A stretch of 4,864 nucleotides of DNA from a virus (lineage: Duplodnaviria; Heunggongvirae; Uroviricota; Caudoviricetes). The notes below the pieces were generated by a model. That model was not told the origin of the DNA and did no database searches. It was given only the letters and a program-made list of their open reading frames with translations. How positions within the stretch are numbered: position 1 is the first letter of the stretch; every line of letters begins with the position of its first letter. The DNA lies in IMG/VR virus record IMGVR_UViG_2597490253_000007; one strand, 5' to 3'. The translations under genes were made by a program, and so were the position numbers. Positions 1 to 4,864 of this stretch are shown here, in pieces.

Positions 1-921
1 ACCGGGCGTCCGGCCATGCTGCATATTTTCGAGCCGGTGGAGGACGGGCAGACCCGTGGGGCTAATCAGTTTTACAGCGTCATGGAACGGCTGAAGATGC
101 TCGATTCCCTGCAGGCAACACAGCTTCAGTCGGCCATAGTGAAGGCGATGTATGCAGCGACGATTGAAAGTGAACTTGATACCGAAAAGGCCTTTGAATA
201 TATCGCCGGCGCGCCACAGGAGCAGAAGGATAATCCGCTTATTAATATTCTGGAGAAGTTTTCCAGCTGGTATGACACGAATAACGTGACACTGGGCGGT
301 GTCAAAATTCCGCACCTTTTCCCTGGTGATGATCTGAAACTACAGACTGCGCAGGATTCAGACAATGGATTTTCTGCGCTTGAACAGGCGCTGCTGCGGT
401 ATATCGCCGCCGGTCTTGGCGTTTCCTACGAACAGTTGTCCCGTGATTACTCGAAGGTCAGTTACTCAAGTGCCCGCGCCTCCGCCAATGAGTCGTGGCG
501 CTATTTTATGGGGCGGCGAAAATTTATTGCGGCCCGGCTGGCCACGCAGATGTTTTCCTGCTGGCTGGAAGAGGCACTTCTTCGGGGGATTATTCGTCCG
601 CCACGGGCACGTTTTGATTTTTATCAGGCGCGATCAGCCTGGTCACGGGCAGAGTGGATTGGTGCCGGAAGAATGGCCATTGACGGGCTCAAGGAAGTCC
701 AGGAATCAGTGATGCGCATTGAGGCCGGACTGAGCACGTATGAGAAAGAGCTGGCGCTGATGGGCGAGGATTATCAGGACATTTTCCGCCAGCAGGTCAG
801 GGAATCTGCTGAGCGGCAAAAAGCCGGACTCTCACGTCCGGTGTGGATAGAGCAGGCGTATCAGCAGCAGATAGCGGAGAGTCGTAGGCCGGAAGAGGAG
901 ACAACACCACGTGAGACGTAA
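1..921 (+). CDS. B: Phage portal protein, lambda gpB-like; C-terminal part only, 5' end lies upstream of the window
   Basis: Open frame runs from position 1 (codons 1-15 ACC GGG CGT CCG GCC carry no stop) to TAA at 919-921. It sits immediately upstream of the C-D-E homologs, as in lambda. Assignment to the lambda portal family is by gene order and recollection, not a search. The ORF-track start at 16 is only the first Met in the window. Confidence 0.85.
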   Translation, partial: TGRPAMLHIFEPVEDGQTRGANQFYSVMERLKMLDSLQATQLQSAIVKAMYAATIESELDTEKAFEYIAGAPQEQKDNPLINILEKFSSWYDTNNVTLGGVKIPHLFPGDDLKLQTAQDSDNGFSALEQALLRYIAAGLGVSYEQLSRDYSKVSYSSARASANESWRYFMGRRKFIAARLATQMFSCWLEEALLRGIIRPPRARFDFYQARSAWSRAEWIGAGRMAIDGLKEVQESVMRIEAGLSTYEKELALMGEDYQDIFRQQVRESAERQKAGLSRPVWIEQAYQQQIAESRRPEEETTPRET

Positions 922-3055
922 TCTTTCACACATTATTGCCGCAGCATTCAATGAACCGCTGCTTCTGGAGCCCGCCTATGCGCGGGTTTTCTTTTGCGCG
1001 CTCGGGCGCGAGATGGGGGCAGCAAGTCTTTCGGTACCACAACAGCAGGTACAGTTTGATGCTCCCGGAATGCTGGCTGAAACGGACGAGTACATGGCCG
1101 GAGGTAAACGACCGGCCCGTGTTTACCGGGTGGTGAACGGTATTGCTGTACTGCCGGTGACCGGCACGCTGGTGCACCGGCTGGGTGGTATGCGGCCATT
1201 TTCCGGAATGACAGGCTATGACGGCATTGTCGCCTGTCTTCAGCAGGCAATGGCGGATAGCCAGGTGCGGGGCGTACTGCTGGACATTGACAGTCCGGGC
1301 GGGCAGGCCGCCGGCGCGTTTGACTGCGCTGACATGATTTACCGCCTCCGTCAGCAGAAGCCGGTCTGGGCACTGTGCAATGACACGGCCTGTTCTGCAG
1401 CCATGCTGCTGGCGTCGGCCTGCTCCCGACGGCTGGTTACCCAGACATCCCGTATCGGCTCCATTGGCGTGATGATGAGCCATGTCAGCTATGCCGGTCA
1501 TCTGGCGCAGGCCGGTGTGGATATCACGCTGATTTACTCAGGGGCGCACAAGGTGGATGGCAATCAGTTTGAAGCGTTGCCGGCAGAGGTTCGCCAGGAC
1601 ATGCAGCAGCGGATTGATGCGGCGCGCCGGATGTTTGCCGAAAAAGTGGCGATGTTTACCGGTCTGTCTGTTGATGCCGTCACGGGAACAGAGGCTGCCG
1701 TTTTTGAAGGTCAGTCCGGCATTGAGGCCGGGCTGGCGGATGAATTAATCAATGCGTCGGATGCCATCAGTGTGATGGCCACGGCGCTGAACAGTAATGT
1801 CAGAGGAGGCACTATGCCGCAATTAACTGCAACGGAAGCCGCCGCGCAGGAGAACCAGCGAGTGATGGGGATCCTGACATGCCAGGAAGCGAAAGGACGT
1901 GAACAGCTTGCCACGATGCTGGCAGGACAACAGGGCATGAGCGTTGAACAGGCCCGGGCGATTCTGGCCGCGGCGGCACCGCAGCAGCCGGTGGCATCCA
2001 CGCAGAGTGAAGCCGATCGCATTATGGTGTGTGAAGAAGCGAACGGTCGTGAACAACTGGCGGCAACGCTGGCGGCGATGCCGGAGATGACGGTGGAAAC
2101 AGCCCGCCCGATCCTGGCTGCTTCACCGCAGGCGGATGCCGGACCATCACTCCGTGATCAGATCATGGCACTGGATGAGGCAAAAGGGGCTGAGGCGCAG
2201 GCTGAACAGCTGGCTGCCTGCCCGGGAATGACAGTGGAGAGCGCCCGGGCTGTGCTGGCTTCGGGATCAGGTAAGGCAGAACCGGTCTCTGCATCCACAA
2301 CCGCCANNNNNNNNNNAGTCACGGGAACAGAGGCCGCTGTTTTTGAAGGTCAGTCCGGCATTGAGGCCGGGCTGGCGGATGAATTAATCAATGCGTCGGA
2401 TGCCATCAGTGTGATGGCCACGGCGCTGAACAGTAATGTCAGAGGAGGCACTATGCCGCAATTAACTGCAACGGAAGCCGCCGTGCAGGAGAACCAGCGA
2501 GTGATGGGGATCCTGACATGCCAGGAAGCGAAAGGACGTGAACAGCTTGCCACGATGCTGGCAGGGCAACAGGGCATGAGCGTTGAACAGGCCCGGGCGA
2601 TTCTGGCCGCGGCGGCACCGCAGCAGCCGGTGGCATCCGCGCAGAGTGAAGCCGATCGCATTATGGCGTGTGAAGAAGCGAACGGTCGTGAACAACTGGC
2701 GGCAACGCTGGCGGCGATGCCGGAGATGACGGTGGAAAAAGCCCGCCCGATCCTGGCGGCTGCACCACTGGCGGATGCCGGGCCCTCGCTTCGTGATCAG
2801 ATCATGGCCCTGGATGAGGCAAAAGGGGCAGAAGCGCAGGCTGAAAAACTGGCGGCCTGCCCGGGAATGACCGTGGAGAACGCCCGGGCTGTGCTGGCTG
2901 CGGGATCAGGTAAGGCCGAACCGGTCTCTGCATCCACAACCGCCCTGTTTGAACATTTCATGGCGAATCATTCACCGGCAGCGGTGCGGGGTGGCGTGTC
3001 ACAGACGTCAGCAGACGGTGATGCGGACGTGAAAATGCTCATGGCCATGCCATGA
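911..3055 (+). CDS. C: Prohead (head maturation) protease, lambda gpC-like, S49/ClpP-like family, with C-terminal scaffold region; as assembled 714 aa, but interrupted by an N-gap and an in-frame 213-codon duplication, so true length is uncertain (possibly about 501 aa)
   Basis: GTG start at 911 overlaps the portal stop by 11 nt, comparable to the B/C overlap in lambda, with GAAGAGGAG at 891-899 as a possible RBS. The N-terminus (RRNLSHIIAAAFNEPLLLEPAYARVFFCAL) closely matches what I recall of lambda gpC. Likely S49 serine nucleophile context is DTACSAAMLLASA, with a conserved HKVDGN segment downstream. Stop TGA at 3053-3055. The frame passes through N(10) at 2307-2316, which is why the track shows XXXX. 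Confidence 0.85.
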   Translation: MRRNLSHIIAAAFNEPLLLEPAYARVFFCALGREMGAASLSVPQQQVQFDAPGMLAETDEYMAGGKRPARVYRVVNGIAVLPVTGTLVHRLGGMRPFSGMTGYDGIVACLQQAMADSQVRGVLLDIDSPGGQAAGAFDCADMIYRLRQQKPVWALCNDTACSAAMLLASACSRRLVTQTSRIGSIGVMMSHVSYAGHLAQAGVDITLIYSGAHKVDGNQFEALPAEVRQDMQQRIDAARRMFAEKVAMFTGLSVDAVTGTEAAVFEGQSGIEAGLADELINASDAISVMATALNSNVRGGTMPQLTATEAAAQENQRVMGILTCQEAKGREQLATMLAGQQGMSVEQARAILAAAAPQQPVASTQSEADRIMVCEEANGREQLAATLAAMPEMTVETARPILAASPQADAGPSLRDQIMALDEAKGAEAQAEQLAACPGMTVESARAVLASGSGKAEPVSASTTAXXXXVTGTEAAVFEGQSGIEAGLADELINASDAISVMATALNSNVRGGTMPQLTATEAAVQENQRVMGILTCQEAKGREQLATMLAGQQGMSVEQARAILAAAAPQQPVASAQSEADRIMACEEANGREQLAATLAAMPEMTVEKARPILAAAPLADAGPSLRDQIMALDEAKGAEAQAEKLAACPGMTVENARAVLAAGSGKAEPVSASTTALFEHFMANHSPAAVRGGVSQTSADGDADVKMLMAMP
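1679..2306 (+). repeat. Direct repeat copy 1 (628 bp), ending at the N-gap
   Basis: Sequence from gtcacgggaacagagg... to ...gcatccacaaccgcca recurs at 2318-2945 with about 25 nt differences by eye (~96% identity). Confidence 0.9.
1814..3055 (+). CDS. Putative nested scaffolding protein, lambda Nu3-like, translated in-frame from an internal start within the C-like gene and co-terminal with it; length inflated by the duplication
   Basis: Strong Shine-Dalgarno AGGAGG at 1804-1809, 4 nt upstream of ATG 1814 (MPQLTATEAA...), in the same frame as C. In lambda, Nu3 is encoded in-frame within the 3' part of C and shares its stop. The downstream sequence is Ala/Glu/Gln-rich and repetitive, typical of scaffold proteins. 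An identical RBS+ATG recurs at 2443-2448 / 2453 in the second repeat copy. Confidence 0.5.
   Translation: MPQLTATEAAAQENQRVMGILTCQEAKGREQLATMLAGQQGMSVEQARAILAAAAPQQPVASTQSEADRIMVCEEANGREQLAATLAAMPEMTVETARPILAASPQADAGPSLRDQIMALDEAKGAEAQAEQLAACPGMTVESARAVLASGSGKAEPVSASTTAXXXXVTGTEAAVFEGQSGIEAGLADELINASDAISVMATALNSNVRGGTMPQLTATEAAVQENQRVMGILTCQEAKGREQLATMLAGQQGMSVEQARAILAAAAPQQPVASAQSEADRIMACEEANGREQLAATLAAMPEMTVEKARPILAAAPLADAGPSLRDQIMALDEAKGAEAQAEKLAACPGMTVENARAVLAAGSGKAEPVSASTTALFEHFMANHSPAAVRGGVSQTSADGDADVKMLMAMP
2307..2316. other. Assembly gap (10 N) inside the C/Nu3-like coding region
   Basis: Run of n characters in the sequence; the flanks are near-identical to each other. Confidence 0.98.
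2318..2945 (+). repeat. Direct repeat copy 2 (628 bp), starting right after the N-gap
   Basis: Near-identical to 1679-2306 at an offset of exactly 639 bp (213 codons), so the reading frame is preserved. Differences are a mix of synonymous and nonsynonymous changes, concentrated in the 3' two thirds. Confidence 0.9.
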
Positions 3056-3091: not shown

Positions 3092-3439
3092 ATGGTGACG
3101 AAAACCATCACTGAACAGCGTGCGGAAGTACGTATTTTTGCCGGTAATGATCCGGCTCATACCGCCACAGGCAGCAGCGGGATTTCTTCTGCAACACCGG
3201 CTCTGACGCCCCTGATGCTGGATGAAGCCACCGGGAAACTGGTGGTCTGGGATGGACAGAAAGCCGGTAGTGCGGTTGGCATACTGGTACTGCCGCTTGA
3301 AGGCACAGAGACGGTGCTGACCTATTACAAGTCGGGGACCTTTGCGACGGAGGCAATCCGCTGGCCTGACAGTGTGGATGAACACAAAAAGGCAAATGCC
3401 TTTGCCGGCACAGCCCTGAGTCACGCGGCTCTGCCGTAA
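3092..3439 (+). CDS. D: Head decoration protein, lambda gpD-like (115 aa)
   Basis: ATG at 3092 with GAGG at 3078-3081 as RBS; stop TAA 3437-3439. Size is close to lambda gpD (~110 aa). Segments such as DPAHTATG, TPLMLD, WDG, AVGIL, YKSGTF and AFAGTA match my recollection of gpD. Position between C and E is as in lambda. Confidence 0.9.
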   Translation: MVTKTITEQRAEVRIFAGNDPAHTATGSSGISSATPALTPLMLDEATGKLVVWDGQKAGSAVGILVLPLEGTETVLTYYKSGTFATEAIRWPDSVDEHKKANAFAGTALSHAALP

Positions 3440-3447
3440 CACGTTAT

Positions 3448-3467
3448 CAGGCCACCATGGTGGCCTG
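3448..3467. promoter_or_regulatory. Perfect 20-bp palindrome (CAGGCCACCATGGTGGCCTG) in the D-E intergenic region; possible RNA stem-loop or dimeric protein-binding site
   Basis: Exact reverse-complement symmetry read directly from the sequence, 9 nt after the D stop and about 30 nt before the E start. It is followed by ACTGATTTCTG, which is only weakly U-rich. Confidence 0.4.
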
Positions 3468-3496
3468 ACTGATTTCTGAATGAAAGGAACTGATTT

Positions 3497-4525
3497 ATGG
3501 GATTGTTTACGACCCGCCAGTTACTCGGTTATACCGAACAAAAAGTGAAATTCCGTGCGCTGTTTCTGGAGCTGTTTTTCCGCCGTACGGTGAATTTCCA
3601 CACCGAAGAGGTGATGCTGGACAAAATTACCGGAAAAACGCCGGTGGCGGCCTATGTCTCCCCGATCGTTGAAGGAAAAGTGCTTCGCCATCGCGGTGGT
3701 GAAACCCGCGTGTTACGTCCGGGCTACGTCAAGCCGAAACACGAATTTAATTACCAGCAGGCGGTTGAGCGCCTTCCTGGTGAAGATCCGGCTCAGCTGA
3801 ACGACCCGGCCTACCGTCGTCTGCGTATCATTACCGATAACCTCAAACAGGAAGAGCACGCCATTGTCCAGGTGGAAGAAATGCAGGCGGTGAATGCCGT
3901 GCTGTATGGCAAATACACCATGGAAGGGGATCAGTTTGATACTGTCGAGGTGGATTTCGGGCGCTCTGAAGGAAATAACATTGAGCAGGCTGACGGTAAA
4001 AAATGGTCTGAGCAGGACCGTGATACGTTTGATCCGACGCATGATATTGACCTCTACTGCGATCAGGCCAGCGGCCTTGTGAATATCGCCATTATGGACG
4101 GTACGGTCTGGCGTCTGCTGAATGGCTTTAAGCTGTTCCGCGAAAAACTGGATACCCGTCGCGGCTCAAATTCACAACTCGAAACGGCAGTGAAAGATCT
4201 GGGCGCAGTGGTGTCCTTCAAGGGGTATTACGGCGATCTGGCCATTGTGGTGGCGAAAACGTCTTATGTGGCAGAGGACGGTACCGAAAAACGTTATCTG
4301 CCGGAGGGCATGCTGGTGTTGGGGAATACGGCGGCAGAGGGGATTCGTTGCTATGGTGCCATTAAGGATGCACAGGCGTTGTCTGAAGGAGTGGTGGCTT
4401 CTTCCCGTTACCCGAAACACTGGCTGACCGTGGGCGATCCGTCCTGTGAATTCACCATGACGCAGTCCGCTCCGCTGATGGTGCTGCCGGATCCGGATGA
4501 GTTTGTGGTGGTACAGGTGAAATAA
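3497..4525 (+). CDS. E: Major capsid protein, lambda gpE-like (342 aa)
   Basis: ATG at 3497 with AAGGA at 3484-3488 as RBS; stop TAA 4523-4525. Length (342 aa) is about that of lambda gpE, and many segments (YVSPIV, PGYVKPKHE, DPAYRR, VEEMQAV, KLDTRRGSNS, LETAVKDLG, MVLGNT, TMTQSAPLM, PDPDEF) match my recollection of gpE. Confidence 0.95.
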   Translation: MGLFTTRQLLGYTEQKVKFRALFLELFFRRTVNFHTEEVMLDKITGKTPVAAYVSPIVEGKVLRHRGGETRVLRPGYVKPKHEFNYQQAVERLPGEDPAQLNDPAYRRLRIITDNLKQEEHAIVQVEEMQAVNAVLYGKYTMEGDQFDTVEVDFGRSEGNNIEQADGKKWSEQDRDTFDPTHDIDLYCDQASGLVNIAIMDGTVWRLLNGFKLFREKLDTRRGSNSQLETAVKDLGAVVSFKGYYGDLAIVVAKTSYVAEDGTEKRYLPEGMLVLGNTAAEGIRCYGAIKDAQALSEGVVASSRYPKHWLTVGDPSCEFTMTQSAPLMVLPDPDEFVVVQVK

Positions 4526-4533
4526 TCCGTGAG

Positions 4534-4562
4534 CGGGGGCGAAATGCCCCCGTGTCTTTTTT
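4534..4562 (+). terminator. Putative rho-independent terminator (or partial terminator/attenuator) between E and FI
   Basis: GC-rich hairpin CGGGGGC (4534-4540), loop GAAAT, GCCCCCG (4546-4552), followed by TGTC and then TTTTTT at 4557-4562, beginning 9 nt after the E stop codon. Confidence 0.6.
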
Positions 4563-4576
4563 CACAGGAGGCTGAG

Positions 4577-4864
4577 ATGGCAACAAAAGAAGAAAATCTG
4601 AATCGTCTTCGTCAACTGGCTGACCTGCTGGGGCGCGAGGCGGATATGTCGGGGAGTGCTGCGGATATTGCTCAACGTGTGTCTGAGTGGGAAGAGGAGC
4701 TTGCTGTTTCCCCGGAGGGCATTATGCACTCTGATGAGAGCGGGGCTGATCAAAATCACACAGACGATGGTGAGCAGTTGAACAACACGGATGCTCCGGA
4801 TGATGTTAAAGCCGTCCGGGTACGGAAGTGCCTGCAAGTAATGGGGTATTGCCCGGAGACAGGT
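4577..4864 (+). CDS. FI: FI-like DNA-packaging/head assembly protein, N-terminal part (3' end beyond the window)
   Basis: ATG at 4577 preceded by AGGAGG at 4566-4571 (5-nt spacing); open for 96 codons to the window end. The N-terminus MATKEENLNRLRQLADLLGRE...AQRVSEWEEEL resembles what I recall of lambda gpFI, and the gene follows E as in lambda. Absent from the ORF track because no stop falls within the window. Confidence 0.6.
   Translation, partial: MATKEENLNRLRQLADLLGREADMSGSAADIAQRVSEWEEELAVSPEGIMHSDESGADQNHTDDGEQLNNTDAPDDVKAVRVRKCLQVMGYCPETG

What the first reader, a model, noticed from the sequence alone, without database searches (positions are those of the whole stretch)
3448..3467. 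Perfect 20-bp palindrome in the D-E intergenic region
CAGGCCACCATGGTGGCCTG is an exact inverted repeat between the decoration and major capsid genes. As RNA it would form a stable GC-rich hairpin (about 8-bp stem, 4-nt loop) directly after the D stop, which could act as a stability element or weak attenuator tuning D:E expression. As DNA it is the kind of symmetric site a dimeric regulator or a restriction/modification enzyme would recognise. Perfect palindromes of this length are uncommon by chance.
Basis: seen in the sequence. Interest (0 to 1): 0.4.

Follow-up and report, generated by a model that had tools for sequence, protein, structure and literature searches.

The report
Terminator-like RNA hairpin between capsid genes
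The palindrome is real, but it is best read as an ordinary RNA stem-loop: this phage lineage's version, with a poor U-tail, of the terminator-shaped hairpin found between the decoration and major capsid genes of most lambda-like phages.

Summary
The perfect palindrome is 22 bp (TCAGGCCACCATGGTGGCCTGA, 3447-3468). It lies 7 nt after the stop of the shp/D-like decoration gene and 28 nt before the start of the major capsid gene, in a phage-21-type head operon. It is rare by chance: 3 of 2000 simulated windows reached 22 bp, and the phage 21 version is the longest perfect palindrome in that 42.9-kb genome.

The palindromic perfection itself is incidental. Close relatives carry CCGCGG, CCGCGT or single-mismatch versions. 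More distant relatives have hairpins of different sequence at the same junction. Across 14 lineages, 4 of 9 stem pairs show compensatory changes, and there are several G·U pairs that work only in sense-strand RNA.

In nearly all other lineages the hairpin is followed by a U-run, the shape of an intrinsic terminator (lambda: AAAGGCCGC-CUGU-GCGGC-U7). In this lineage the U-tract is marginal.

My best reading is an intercistronic RNA stem-loop derived from an intra-operon terminator. It would be at most a weak terminator and would more likely act as a barrier that protects the RNA end. A DNA-level binding or restriction site is not supported. Function is inferred, not shown. Three lineages lack the hairpin, so it is dispensable. 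Interest is low.

The parts
3092..3439 (+). shp / lambda-D-like head decoration gene (115 aa); stop TAA at 3437-3439
   Evidence: ORF. It is 96% identical in DNA to phage 21 shp (M81255). Homologs carry Pfam PF02924.
3447..3468 (+). 22-bp perfect palindrome, read as a sense-strand RNA stem-loop with a 9-bp stem and CAUG loop
   Evidence: -15.8 kcal/mol. Pair probabilities are 0.92 or higher. Covariation with homologous hairpins is shown.
3443..3473 (+). Possible extended stem: GUUA/UGAU weak pairs with a bulged C added below the core
   Evidence: -16.8 kcal/mol. This extension was not tested by covariation.
3474..3483 (+). Marginal U-containing tail (UUCUGAAUGA) after the extended stem
   Evidence: Tail score is -3.36 in this register (1.6% of random tails score as well). 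It is -2.41 directly after the core stem (15% of random). Lambda scores -5.42.
3485..3488 (+). Shine-Dalgarno AGGA of the capsid gene
   Evidence: Annotated at the equivalent position in M81255. The sequence is shown.
3497..4525 (+). Major capsid protein gene (gp7 / lambda-E-like, 342 aa)
   Evidence: PF03864.
4533..4562 (+). Second, stronger terminator-shaped hairpin just after the capsid gene: stem-loop 4533-4553, then GTC, then T6 at 4557-4562
   Evidence: A hairpin at this E-FI junction is present in nearly every relative examined; one distant relative shows none.

Best explanation
The palindrome is the DNA image of a stem-loop that forms in the sense-strand late mRNA, in the 57-nt spacer between the decoration gene (shp/D) and the major capsid gene (gp7/E).

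It is the phage-21-lineage version of a hairpin found at this junction in most lambda-like head operons. Elsewhere that hairpin has the full shape of an intrinsic terminator: A-tract, GC stem, U-run.

Inferred mechanism:
- RNA polymerase carrying the phage Q antiterminator reads through the hairpin, so D and E stay on one late transcript.
- For unmodified polymerase the element is at most a weak stop, because its U-tract has decayed to UUCU after a weak stem extension.
- Once made, the stable hairpin most likely blocks 3'-to-5' exonucleases or marks processed ends, protecting the D-side message.
- Together with the hairpin after E, it brackets the capsid cistron.

Shown here: the structure, its position, its homology to terminator-shaped hairpins, and selection on RNA pairing across lineages.
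Inferred only: weak termination, the RNA-stability role, and read-through by Q.
For: 1. The hairpin is strong and forms in context.
2. A GC-rich hairpin occupies the same junction in lambda, Gifsy-1, and in Citrobacter, Salmonella, Pluralibacter, Edwardsiella, Trabulsiella, Serratia, Buttiauxella, Erwinia, Kluyvera, Enterobacter and Aeromonadaceae prophages. The stem sequences differ.
3. On a MAFFT alignment of 14 lineages, 92.9% of cells pair, against 84.2% in shuffles (0 of 500 shuffles as high) and 24-46% when partners are slid. Four of 9 pairs change on both sides, for example A-U (window), G·U (Citrobacter) and G-C (Salmonella) at one position. Ten cells are G·U or U·G, which pair only in + strand RNA.
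4. Almost all other lineages have a U-run right after the stem, with tail scores of -4 to -5.7.
5. In phage 21's late operon the only gaps of 50 nt or more are shp-7, 7-FI, I-J and J-stf. Each holds a hairpin of -18 to -20 kcal/mol, and the last two are annotated as terminators.
6. Intergenic folds beat shuffles in most relatives (z = -2 to -4).
7. Terminators inside lambdoid late operons are a recognised feature whose role is unknown. The proposed roles are partial termination or stopping transcription that lacks antitermination (PMC8022706).
Against: - No transcript data were available, so no 3' end, half-life or termination efficiency has been measured.
- The U-tract is not better than chance directly after the core stem (-2.41; 15% of random tails). 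It is only marginal in the extended register (-3.36; 1.6%).
- Among 77 close relatives, nucleotide diversity in the palindrome (0.082) equals that of synonymous sites (0.05-0.07). It is five times that of the rest of the spacer.
- About 8-20% of close relatives carry a stem mismatch. Transitions hit both arms about equally, so there is no strand signal within the clade.
- Three related lineages (Klebsiella, Providencia, one Salmonella) have no hairpin, and one prophage has deleted it. It is therefore dispensable.
Confidence: 0.55

Rival explanations
1. Decaying relic. The hairpin descends from a real D-E terminator but has no remaining function in the phage-21 lineage. It persists only because too little time has passed for it to erode.
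For: - The U-tract has been lost.
- Diversity within the palindrome equals synonymous-site diversity.
- Mismatch variants are common.
- The hairpin is absent in three lineages and deleted in L071.
Against: - About 90% of roughly 200 close relatives keep a hairpin of -12 kcal/mol or stronger, and 68% of a 120-locus sample are perfect palindromes.
- The basal 5 bp on each side are invariant in 77 loci, and polymorphism is confined to the loop and the apical 3' arm.
- Compensatory changes link this hairpin to those of the Citrobacter, Salmonella and Gifsy-1 relatives.
Confidence: 0.25
2. Working attenuator. The hairpin terminates a useful fraction of late transcription and so lowers E (and downstream) mRNA relative to D.
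For: - The lenient scan lists it as terminator-like.
- In the extended register the tail begins UUCU.
- The homologous elements in relatives look like canonical terminators.
Against: - The proximal tail after the GC stem is CUGA, and the stem extension that reaches the U's consists of weak A-U and G·U pairs with a bulge.
- From general knowledge, not tested here: late transcription in phage 21 is by Q-modified, terminator-resistant polymerase, and D and E are needed in roughly equal copy number in lambda-type heads.
- The stronger terminator shape lies after E, not before it.
Confidence: 0.12
3. Translational element. The hairpin insulates or exposes the capsid-gene ribosome-binding site, or acts as a ribosome standby site, to set E translation.
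For: - The hairpin lies 16 nt upstream of the Shine-Dalgarno sequence.
- In lambda-type relatives the hairpin and U-run abut the Shine-Dalgarno sequence.
- The spacer downstream of the hairpin is much more conserved than the hairpin itself.
Against: Predicted unpaired probability of the Shine-Dalgarno sequence, start codon and initiation region is essentially unchanged when the hairpin is deleted or an arm is scrambled (0.45 versus 0.35-0.47). Relatives with a 26-nt spacer and no hairpin exist.
Confidence: 0.08
4. DNA-level symmetric site, recognised by a dimeric regulator or a restriction-modification enzyme, or acting as a cruciform.
For: It is a perfect 22-bp palindrome. It contains NcoI (CCATGG), BstXI and HaeIII sites, as read directly from the sequence. 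Both the CCATGG and CCGCGG centres keep the symmetry.
Against: - It is single-copy in phage 21, with no second full site.
- The centre is not conserved, and 23% of the sample carry the asymmetric CCGCGT.
- Relatives have non-palindromic loops (GAA, CUGU, UCA) and T·G asymmetries that keep RNA pairing but break DNA symmetry.
- The chance that a 2-nt centre is self-complementary is 1 in 4.
Confidence: 0.03

Closest known systems
Lambda D-E intergenic hairpin (AAAGGCCGC-CUGU-GCGGC-U7, lambda about 6105-6127) and its equivalents in lambda-type prophages
   Same: - Same junction: after the decoration gene and before the major capsid gene.
- Same GGCC/GCGGCC-type GC core and similar stem length and stability.
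- Linked to the window's hairpin through intermediate relatives by compensatory changes.
   Different: Lambda-type elements have a conserved A-tract and a U7 run that abuts the E Shine-Dalgarno sequence. The window's element has no adjacent U-run and lies 16 nt from the Shine-Dalgarno sequence. Its loop happens to be self-complementary, which is what makes the DNA a perfect palindrome.
Intra-operon intrinsic terminators of lambdoid late operons (e.g. those annotated at I-J and J-stf in phage 21 OL657228, and the one at the end of the procapsid module in phage L/P22)
   Same: GC-rich hairpins occupy the few sizeable intergenic gaps of a Q-antiterminated late operon. Their role is acknowledged as unknown (PMC8022706).
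   Different: Those have clear U-runs (tail scores -4.6 to -5.7). This one does not, and it is not annotated in the curated phage 21 record.
Intercistronic mRNA-stabilising hairpins (e.g. the REP hairpins of malE-malF, the puf operon hairpins); recalled from general knowledge
   Same: A stable hairpin without a U-run between two cistrons of one operon. The expected action is a block to 3' exonucleases, giving segment-specific mRNA stability.
   Different: It is not a dispersed repeat: there is one copy per phage, always in the D/E context. No decay data exist for it.

Membership tests
Intrinsic (Rho-independent) terminator | GC-rich stem of about 5-14 bp with a 3-8 nt loop | tested here: met
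   A 9-bp stem with 6 G-C pairs and a 4-nt loop, -15.8 kcal/mol.
Intrinsic (Rho-independent) terminator | U-rich tract immediately 3' of the stem | tested here: inconclusive
   The tail after the core stem is CUGAUUUCUG. Its score of -2.41 is matched by 15% of random tails. After the weak extended stem the tail is UUCUGAAUG, scoring -3.36 (1.6% of random). Lambda scores -5.42 and the phage 21 I-J and J-stf terminators -4.65 and -5.73. The lenient scan accepts the site.
Intrinsic (Rho-independent) terminator | Produces transcript 3' ends in vivo or in vitro | not testable with these tools
   No RNA-seq, Term-seq or transcription assay was available.
Lambda-like D-E junction hairpin (positional family defined here) | Hairpin in the spacer between the PF02924 decoration gene and the PF03864 capsid gene, with pairing kept across lineages | tested here: met
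   92.9% of cells paired and 4 of 9 pairs with double changes. The hairpin is absent in 3 lineages.
REP/BIME-type dispersed palindromes | Many copies dispersed in intergenic regions of the host genome with a shared consensus | tested here: not met
   One copy in the phage 21 genome. Among the 60 sampled rows of 1949 matching E. coli records, every match covering the hairpin lies under the head decoration and major capsid genes.
RNase III processing hairpins (T7 R sites, lambda sib type) | About 20 bp or more of near-continuous double-stranded RNA | tested here: not met
   The stem is 9 bp, or at most 13 bp with a bulge.
Palindromic operator / dimeric protein binding site | Sequence-conserved symmetric half-sites, usually recurring at regulated promoters | tested here: not met
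   The site is single-copy. Half-sites vary asymmetrically, and structure rather than sequence is conserved. No promoter-like site was found in the window.
Any curated Rfam family | Covariance-model match at or near the gathering score | tested here: not met
   Nothing at this site even at E <= 1. The only hit in the window is a chance ssnA match at 1067-1109.

The most novel reading that the evidence does not exclude
The D-E and E-FI hairpins together form a conserved post-transcriptional cassette in lambda-like head operons. They bracket the major capsid cistron so that a discrete, long-lived capsid (and decoration) mRNA is carved out of the roughly 25-kb late transcript. The phage-21 lineage kept the upstream hairpin after losing its U-run. 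That would be a natural separation-of-function case, showing that the selected role is RNA-end protection rather than termination.
Probability: 0.2. Interest if true: 0.45.

Novelty: new member of a known kind. Interest (0 to 1): 0.2.

Why it matters
The importance is modest. Terminator-shaped hairpins inside antiterminated phage late operons are common, and phage genome papers acknowledge that their role is unexplained (PMC8022706).

This case adds three things:
- The junction between the decoration and capsid genes carries such a hairpin across most lambda-like phages.
- RNA pairing at that hairpin is under selection.
- One large, clinically common E. coli prophage lineage keeps the hairpin without a proper U-run.

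That lineage offers a simple genetic handle for asking whether these elements act through termination or through RNA stability. For annotation, the practical message is that the 'perfect palindrome' should not be read as a protein-binding or restriction site.

Tried and rejected
- **Rfam scan of the window:** nothing at the site.
- **DNA-site idea:** I searched phage 21 for further copies or half-sites and found one full site only.
- **Mini-ORF in the hairpin (AUG GUG GCC UGA):** rejected, because phage 21 and most relatives have CCGCGG or CCGCGU with no AUG there.
- **Chi-like or Dcm/Dam motifs:** none present, read directly from the sequence.
- **G·U wobble as a strand signal within the close clade:** rejected. 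Transitions occur about equally in both arms, so each is a wobble on one strand and a mismatch on the other. The strand signal appears only across lineages.
- **The AT to GC centre change as evidence for selection on DNA symmetry or for template-switch correction:** not significant, because 1 in 4 dinucleotides is self-complementary. No intermediates were seen in 200 loci.
- **Insulation of the ribosome-binding site:** no effect on predicted accessibility.
- **First pattern scan:** it used a wrong spacer length and found nothing. The corrected scan is.
- **scan_promoters_terminators on lambda:** it reported no terminator. Its greedy stem pairs the A-tract with the T-run, so that negative is a tool artefact.
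- **Literature:** searches for a described lambda D-E terminator, or for late-mRNA processing at this site, found nothing in the held library. The Liu 2013 and Sampson 1988 papers are not held.

Full report
**1. Observation**

The 20-mer is at 3448-3467 as reported. The perfect inverted repeat is really 22 bp: TCAGGCCACCATGGTGGCCTGA, 3447-3468. Every other perfect palindrome in the window is 10 bp or shorter. In 2000 first-order Markov simulations of the window, 3 reached 22 bp. The feature is therefore real and unlikely by chance. The repeat finder did not list it.

**2. Context**

The window is a phage-21-type (Jouyvirus, lambdoid) head-gene block. Its contents are as follows.

| Coordinates | Feature |
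|---|---|
| 16-921 | End of the portal gene |
| 911-3055 | Gene for the gp5/gp6 protease-scaffold (C/Nu3-like) |
| 3092-3439 | shp/D-like decoration gene |
| 3497-4525 | gp7/E-like major capsid gene |
| 4577 onward | FI-like gene, running off the window end |

DNA identity to phage 21 is about 96%. About 1,950 of 5,426 complete E. coli genomes carry this region. The palindrome starts 7 nt after the shp stop. It ends 16 nt before the capsid-gene Shine-Dalgarno sequence (AGGA, 3485-3488).

**3. Folding**

As RNA the 22-mer forms a 9-bp stem with a CAUG loop, at -15.8 kcal/mol. In a 220-nt context, pair probabilities are 0.92 for the outermost pair and at least 0.99 for the other eight. Weak flanking pairs can extend the stem to 13 bp with a bulge (3443-3473). 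The 57-nt spacer folds better than its dinucleotide shuffles (z about -3).

**4. Close relatives**

I used two samples of IMG/VR prophages: 80 loci found through the capsid protein and 120 found through the conserved spacer flanks. In the 120-locus sample the variants were:

| Variant | Loci | Note |
|---|---|---|
| Centre CCGCGG (as in phage 21 itself) | 61 | Perfect palindrome |
| Centre CCATGG (as in the window) | 21 | Perfect palindrome |
| CCGCGT | 28 | 8-bp stem, 6-nt loop |
| Single mismatches or wobbles | 10 | |

- One locus (L071) has deleted the hairpin, together with the last codons of shp, between CCTGA direct repeats.
- Transitions occur in both arms about equally. Within this clade there is therefore no strand-specific wobble signal.
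- Among 77 loci, nucleotide diversity in the palindrome is 0.082. That is as high as at synonymous sites (0.069 in shp, 0.049 in the capsid gene) and five times that of the rest of the spacer (0.015).
- All polymorphism lies at 3456-3463, which is the loop and the apical part of the 3' arm. The basal five pairs are invariant.

The perfect symmetry is thus not conserved. The lower stem and the flanks are conserved, and constraint on the upper stem is weak.

**5. Distant relatives**

I collected D-E spacers from lambda, Gifsy-1, species-representative genomes and contigs encoding capsid proteins 60-92% identical to the window's.

*Hairpin present.* A GC-rich hairpin sits in this spacer in most of them, with different stems:

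| Relative | Stem-loop | Tail |
|---|---|---|
| Citrobacter | CAGGCCGC-CGUU-GUGGCCUG | AUUUAUUAU |
| Salmonella | CAGGCCGC-UCA-GCGGCCUG | AAUUUUUCU |
| Pluralibacter | CGGGCCGC-GCC-GCGGCCUG | |
| Gifsy-1 | AAGGCCGC-GAA-GCGGCCUU | UAUCGUAUUU |
| Edwardsiella | CGGGUCGC-UUUA-GCGGCCCG | UUUUUAUUU |
| Trabulsiella | AAUCGGGUC-GUUUCA-GACCUGAUU | |
| Lambda-type clade | AAAGGCCGC-CUGU-GCGGC | U7 |

Serratia-type and Buttiauxella relatives also have hairpins with U-runs. The lambda-type clade comprises about 20 distinct enterobacterial sequences.

*Hairpin absent.* Three lineages have none: Klebsiella L288 and Providencia L088/089, with 26-nt spacers, and Salmonella L295.

*Covariation.* A MAFFT alignment of 14 lineages gives these counts:
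- 92.9% of cells pair, against 84.2% in shuffles (0 of 500 shuffles as high) and 24-46% with slid partners.
- 4 of 9 pairs change on both sides. One position shows the series A-U (window), G·U (Citrobacter), G-C (Salmonella).
- 10 cells are G·U or U·G. These pair only in + strand RNA and would be A·C mismatches on the other strand or asymmetries in duplex DNA.

Caveats: I chose the sequences, they are related to one another, and the helix was defined from the window.

This is the main evidence that selection acts on a sense-strand RNA structure, not on a DNA palindrome.

**6. Terminator likeness**

I scored the 15 nt after each stem with a d'Aubenton-Carafa-type tail score.

| Element | Tail score |
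|---|---|
| Lambda D-E | -5.42 |
| Serratia type | -5.06 |
| Gifsy-1 | -4.10 |
| Phage 21 I-J terminator (annotated) | -4.65 |
| Phage 21 J-stf terminator (annotated) | -5.73 |
| Window, after the core stem | -2.41 (15% of random tails as good) |
| Window, after the weak extended stem (tail UUCU...) | -3.36 (1.6% of random) |

The lenient scan tool lists the site as terminator-like. The element is therefore a terminator-shaped hairpin whose U-tract has largely decayed in this lineage. The scan tool's negative on lambda is an artefact of its greedy stem extension into the T-run.

**7. Operon architecture**

In phage 21's late operon most genes overlap or abut. The only gaps of 50 nt or more are shp-7, 7-FI, I-J and J-stf. 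Each holds a hairpin of -18 to -20 kcal/mol. The curated record annotates terminators at I-J and J-stf but nothing at shp-7 or 7-FI.

The capsid gene is also followed by a hairpin in nearly every relative examined; one distant relative (L134) shows none. In the window this is 4533-4553 plus T6. In lambda it is GGCCC-UUCG-GGGCC. The capsid cistron is thus bracketed by two hairpins in most of the family.

**8. Alternatives tested**

- *DNA binding or restriction site:* the site is single-copy, its centre varies, and symmetry is not conserved. The NcoI, BstXI and HaeIII sites are trivial consequences of the sequence.
- *Insulation of the ribosome-binding site:* predicted accessibility of the capsid-gene initiation region is unchanged when the hairpin is deleted or an arm is scrambled.
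- *RNase III site:* the stem is too short.
- *REP element:* the sequence is not dispersed.
- *Rfam:* no match.
- *Mini-ORF in the loop:* not conserved.

**9. Mechanism**

This section is inference. Late transcription in phage 21 depends on Q21, which makes RNA polymerase resistant to terminators. This is general knowledge; the QBE, pR' and tR' sites are annotated in OL657228.

The hairpin is therefore most likely read through during lytic growth and forms afterwards in the mRNA. Such a structure can block 3' exonucleases and define stable processed segments. For polymerase that lacks Q it could still act as a weak stop.

The phage L genome paper states that intra-operon terminators in lambdoid late operons are common and that their roles are not known. 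It proposes partial termination, or stopping spurious transcription that lacks antitermination (PMC8022706).

The high diversity in the upper stem and the loss of the hairpin in three lineages show that it is dispensable. A relic with little remaining function is a serious rival.

**10. Verdict**

The element is a new, unannotated member of a known kind: an intercistronic, terminator-derived hairpin in a phage late operon. Interest is low. The one mildly interesting point is that this lineage keeps the hairpin without the U-run, which could be used to separate termination from RNA-stability roles.

Noticed in passing
window 1679-2305 and 2318-2944, with N10 at 2307-2316: Two direct copies about 96% identical, offset by 639 bp and separated by a run of 10 N. 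They inflate the gp5/C-like ORF to 714 aa, against 501 aa in phage 21. This looks like a scaffold join of two overlapping, slightly different contigs (possibly two prophages), not a real duplication.
   Followed up: partly
window 4533-4562: A strong terminator-shaped hairpin (GCGGGGGCGAAATGCCCCCGT, then GTC, then T6) lies 8 nt after the capsid-gene stop. A hairpin at this E-FI junction is present in nearly every relative examined, including lambda (GGCCC-UUCG-GGGCC); one distant relative (L134) shows none. It is not annotated in the curated phage 21 record.
   Followed up: partly
window 4577-4864: An FI-like DNA-packaging gene (MATKEENLNRLRQLADLLG...) starts at 4577 and runs off the window end. 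That is why the ORF list shows nothing there on the + strand.
   Followed up: yes
L071 (IMG/VR), equivalent to window about 3415-3468: A natural deletion between CCTGA direct repeats removes the last ~10 codons of shp and the whole hairpin. The shp frame then ends at a new TGA within the spacer.
   Followed up: no
L288 (Klebsiella), L088/L089 (Providencia), L295 (Salmonella): These relatives, with capsid proteins 79-86% identical, have no D-E hairpin. Two of them have a spacer of only 26 nt. The element is therefore dispensable in some lineages.
   Followed up: partly
window 1800-2300 and 2440-2940 (gp5/gp6 scaffold region): Three tandem protein modules of roughly 38 aa (EAKGREQLATMLA..., EANGREQLAATLA..., EAKGAEAQAEQLA...). 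They appear to correspond to the 'Tri' boxes that M81255 annotates as repeats of unknown function.
   Followed up: no
window 3388-3406: A near-palindrome, AAAGGCAAATGCCTTT, lies inside shp. The scan flags it as a minus-strand terminator-like site. It encodes the conserved KKANAF motif and is probably a coincidence of coding.
   Followed up: no
L093-L108, L126, L130, L133, L136-L149 and others (genome contigs): Lambda capsid-gene sequence, identical or nearly so to lambda, appears on short low-coverage contigs of unrelated assemblies (Bacillus-like, Streptomyces-like, Akkermansia, Prevotella and others). This is almost certainly lambda DNA contamination of sequencing libraries.
   Followed up: no
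MT713136.1 (Aeromonas phage AP1) 250152-250356: A 205-bp stretch 95.6% identical to the window begins exactly at the capsid-gene start codon, in a 254-kb Aeromonas phage record with no annotated feature there. It may be contamination or an assembly chimera.
   Followed up: no
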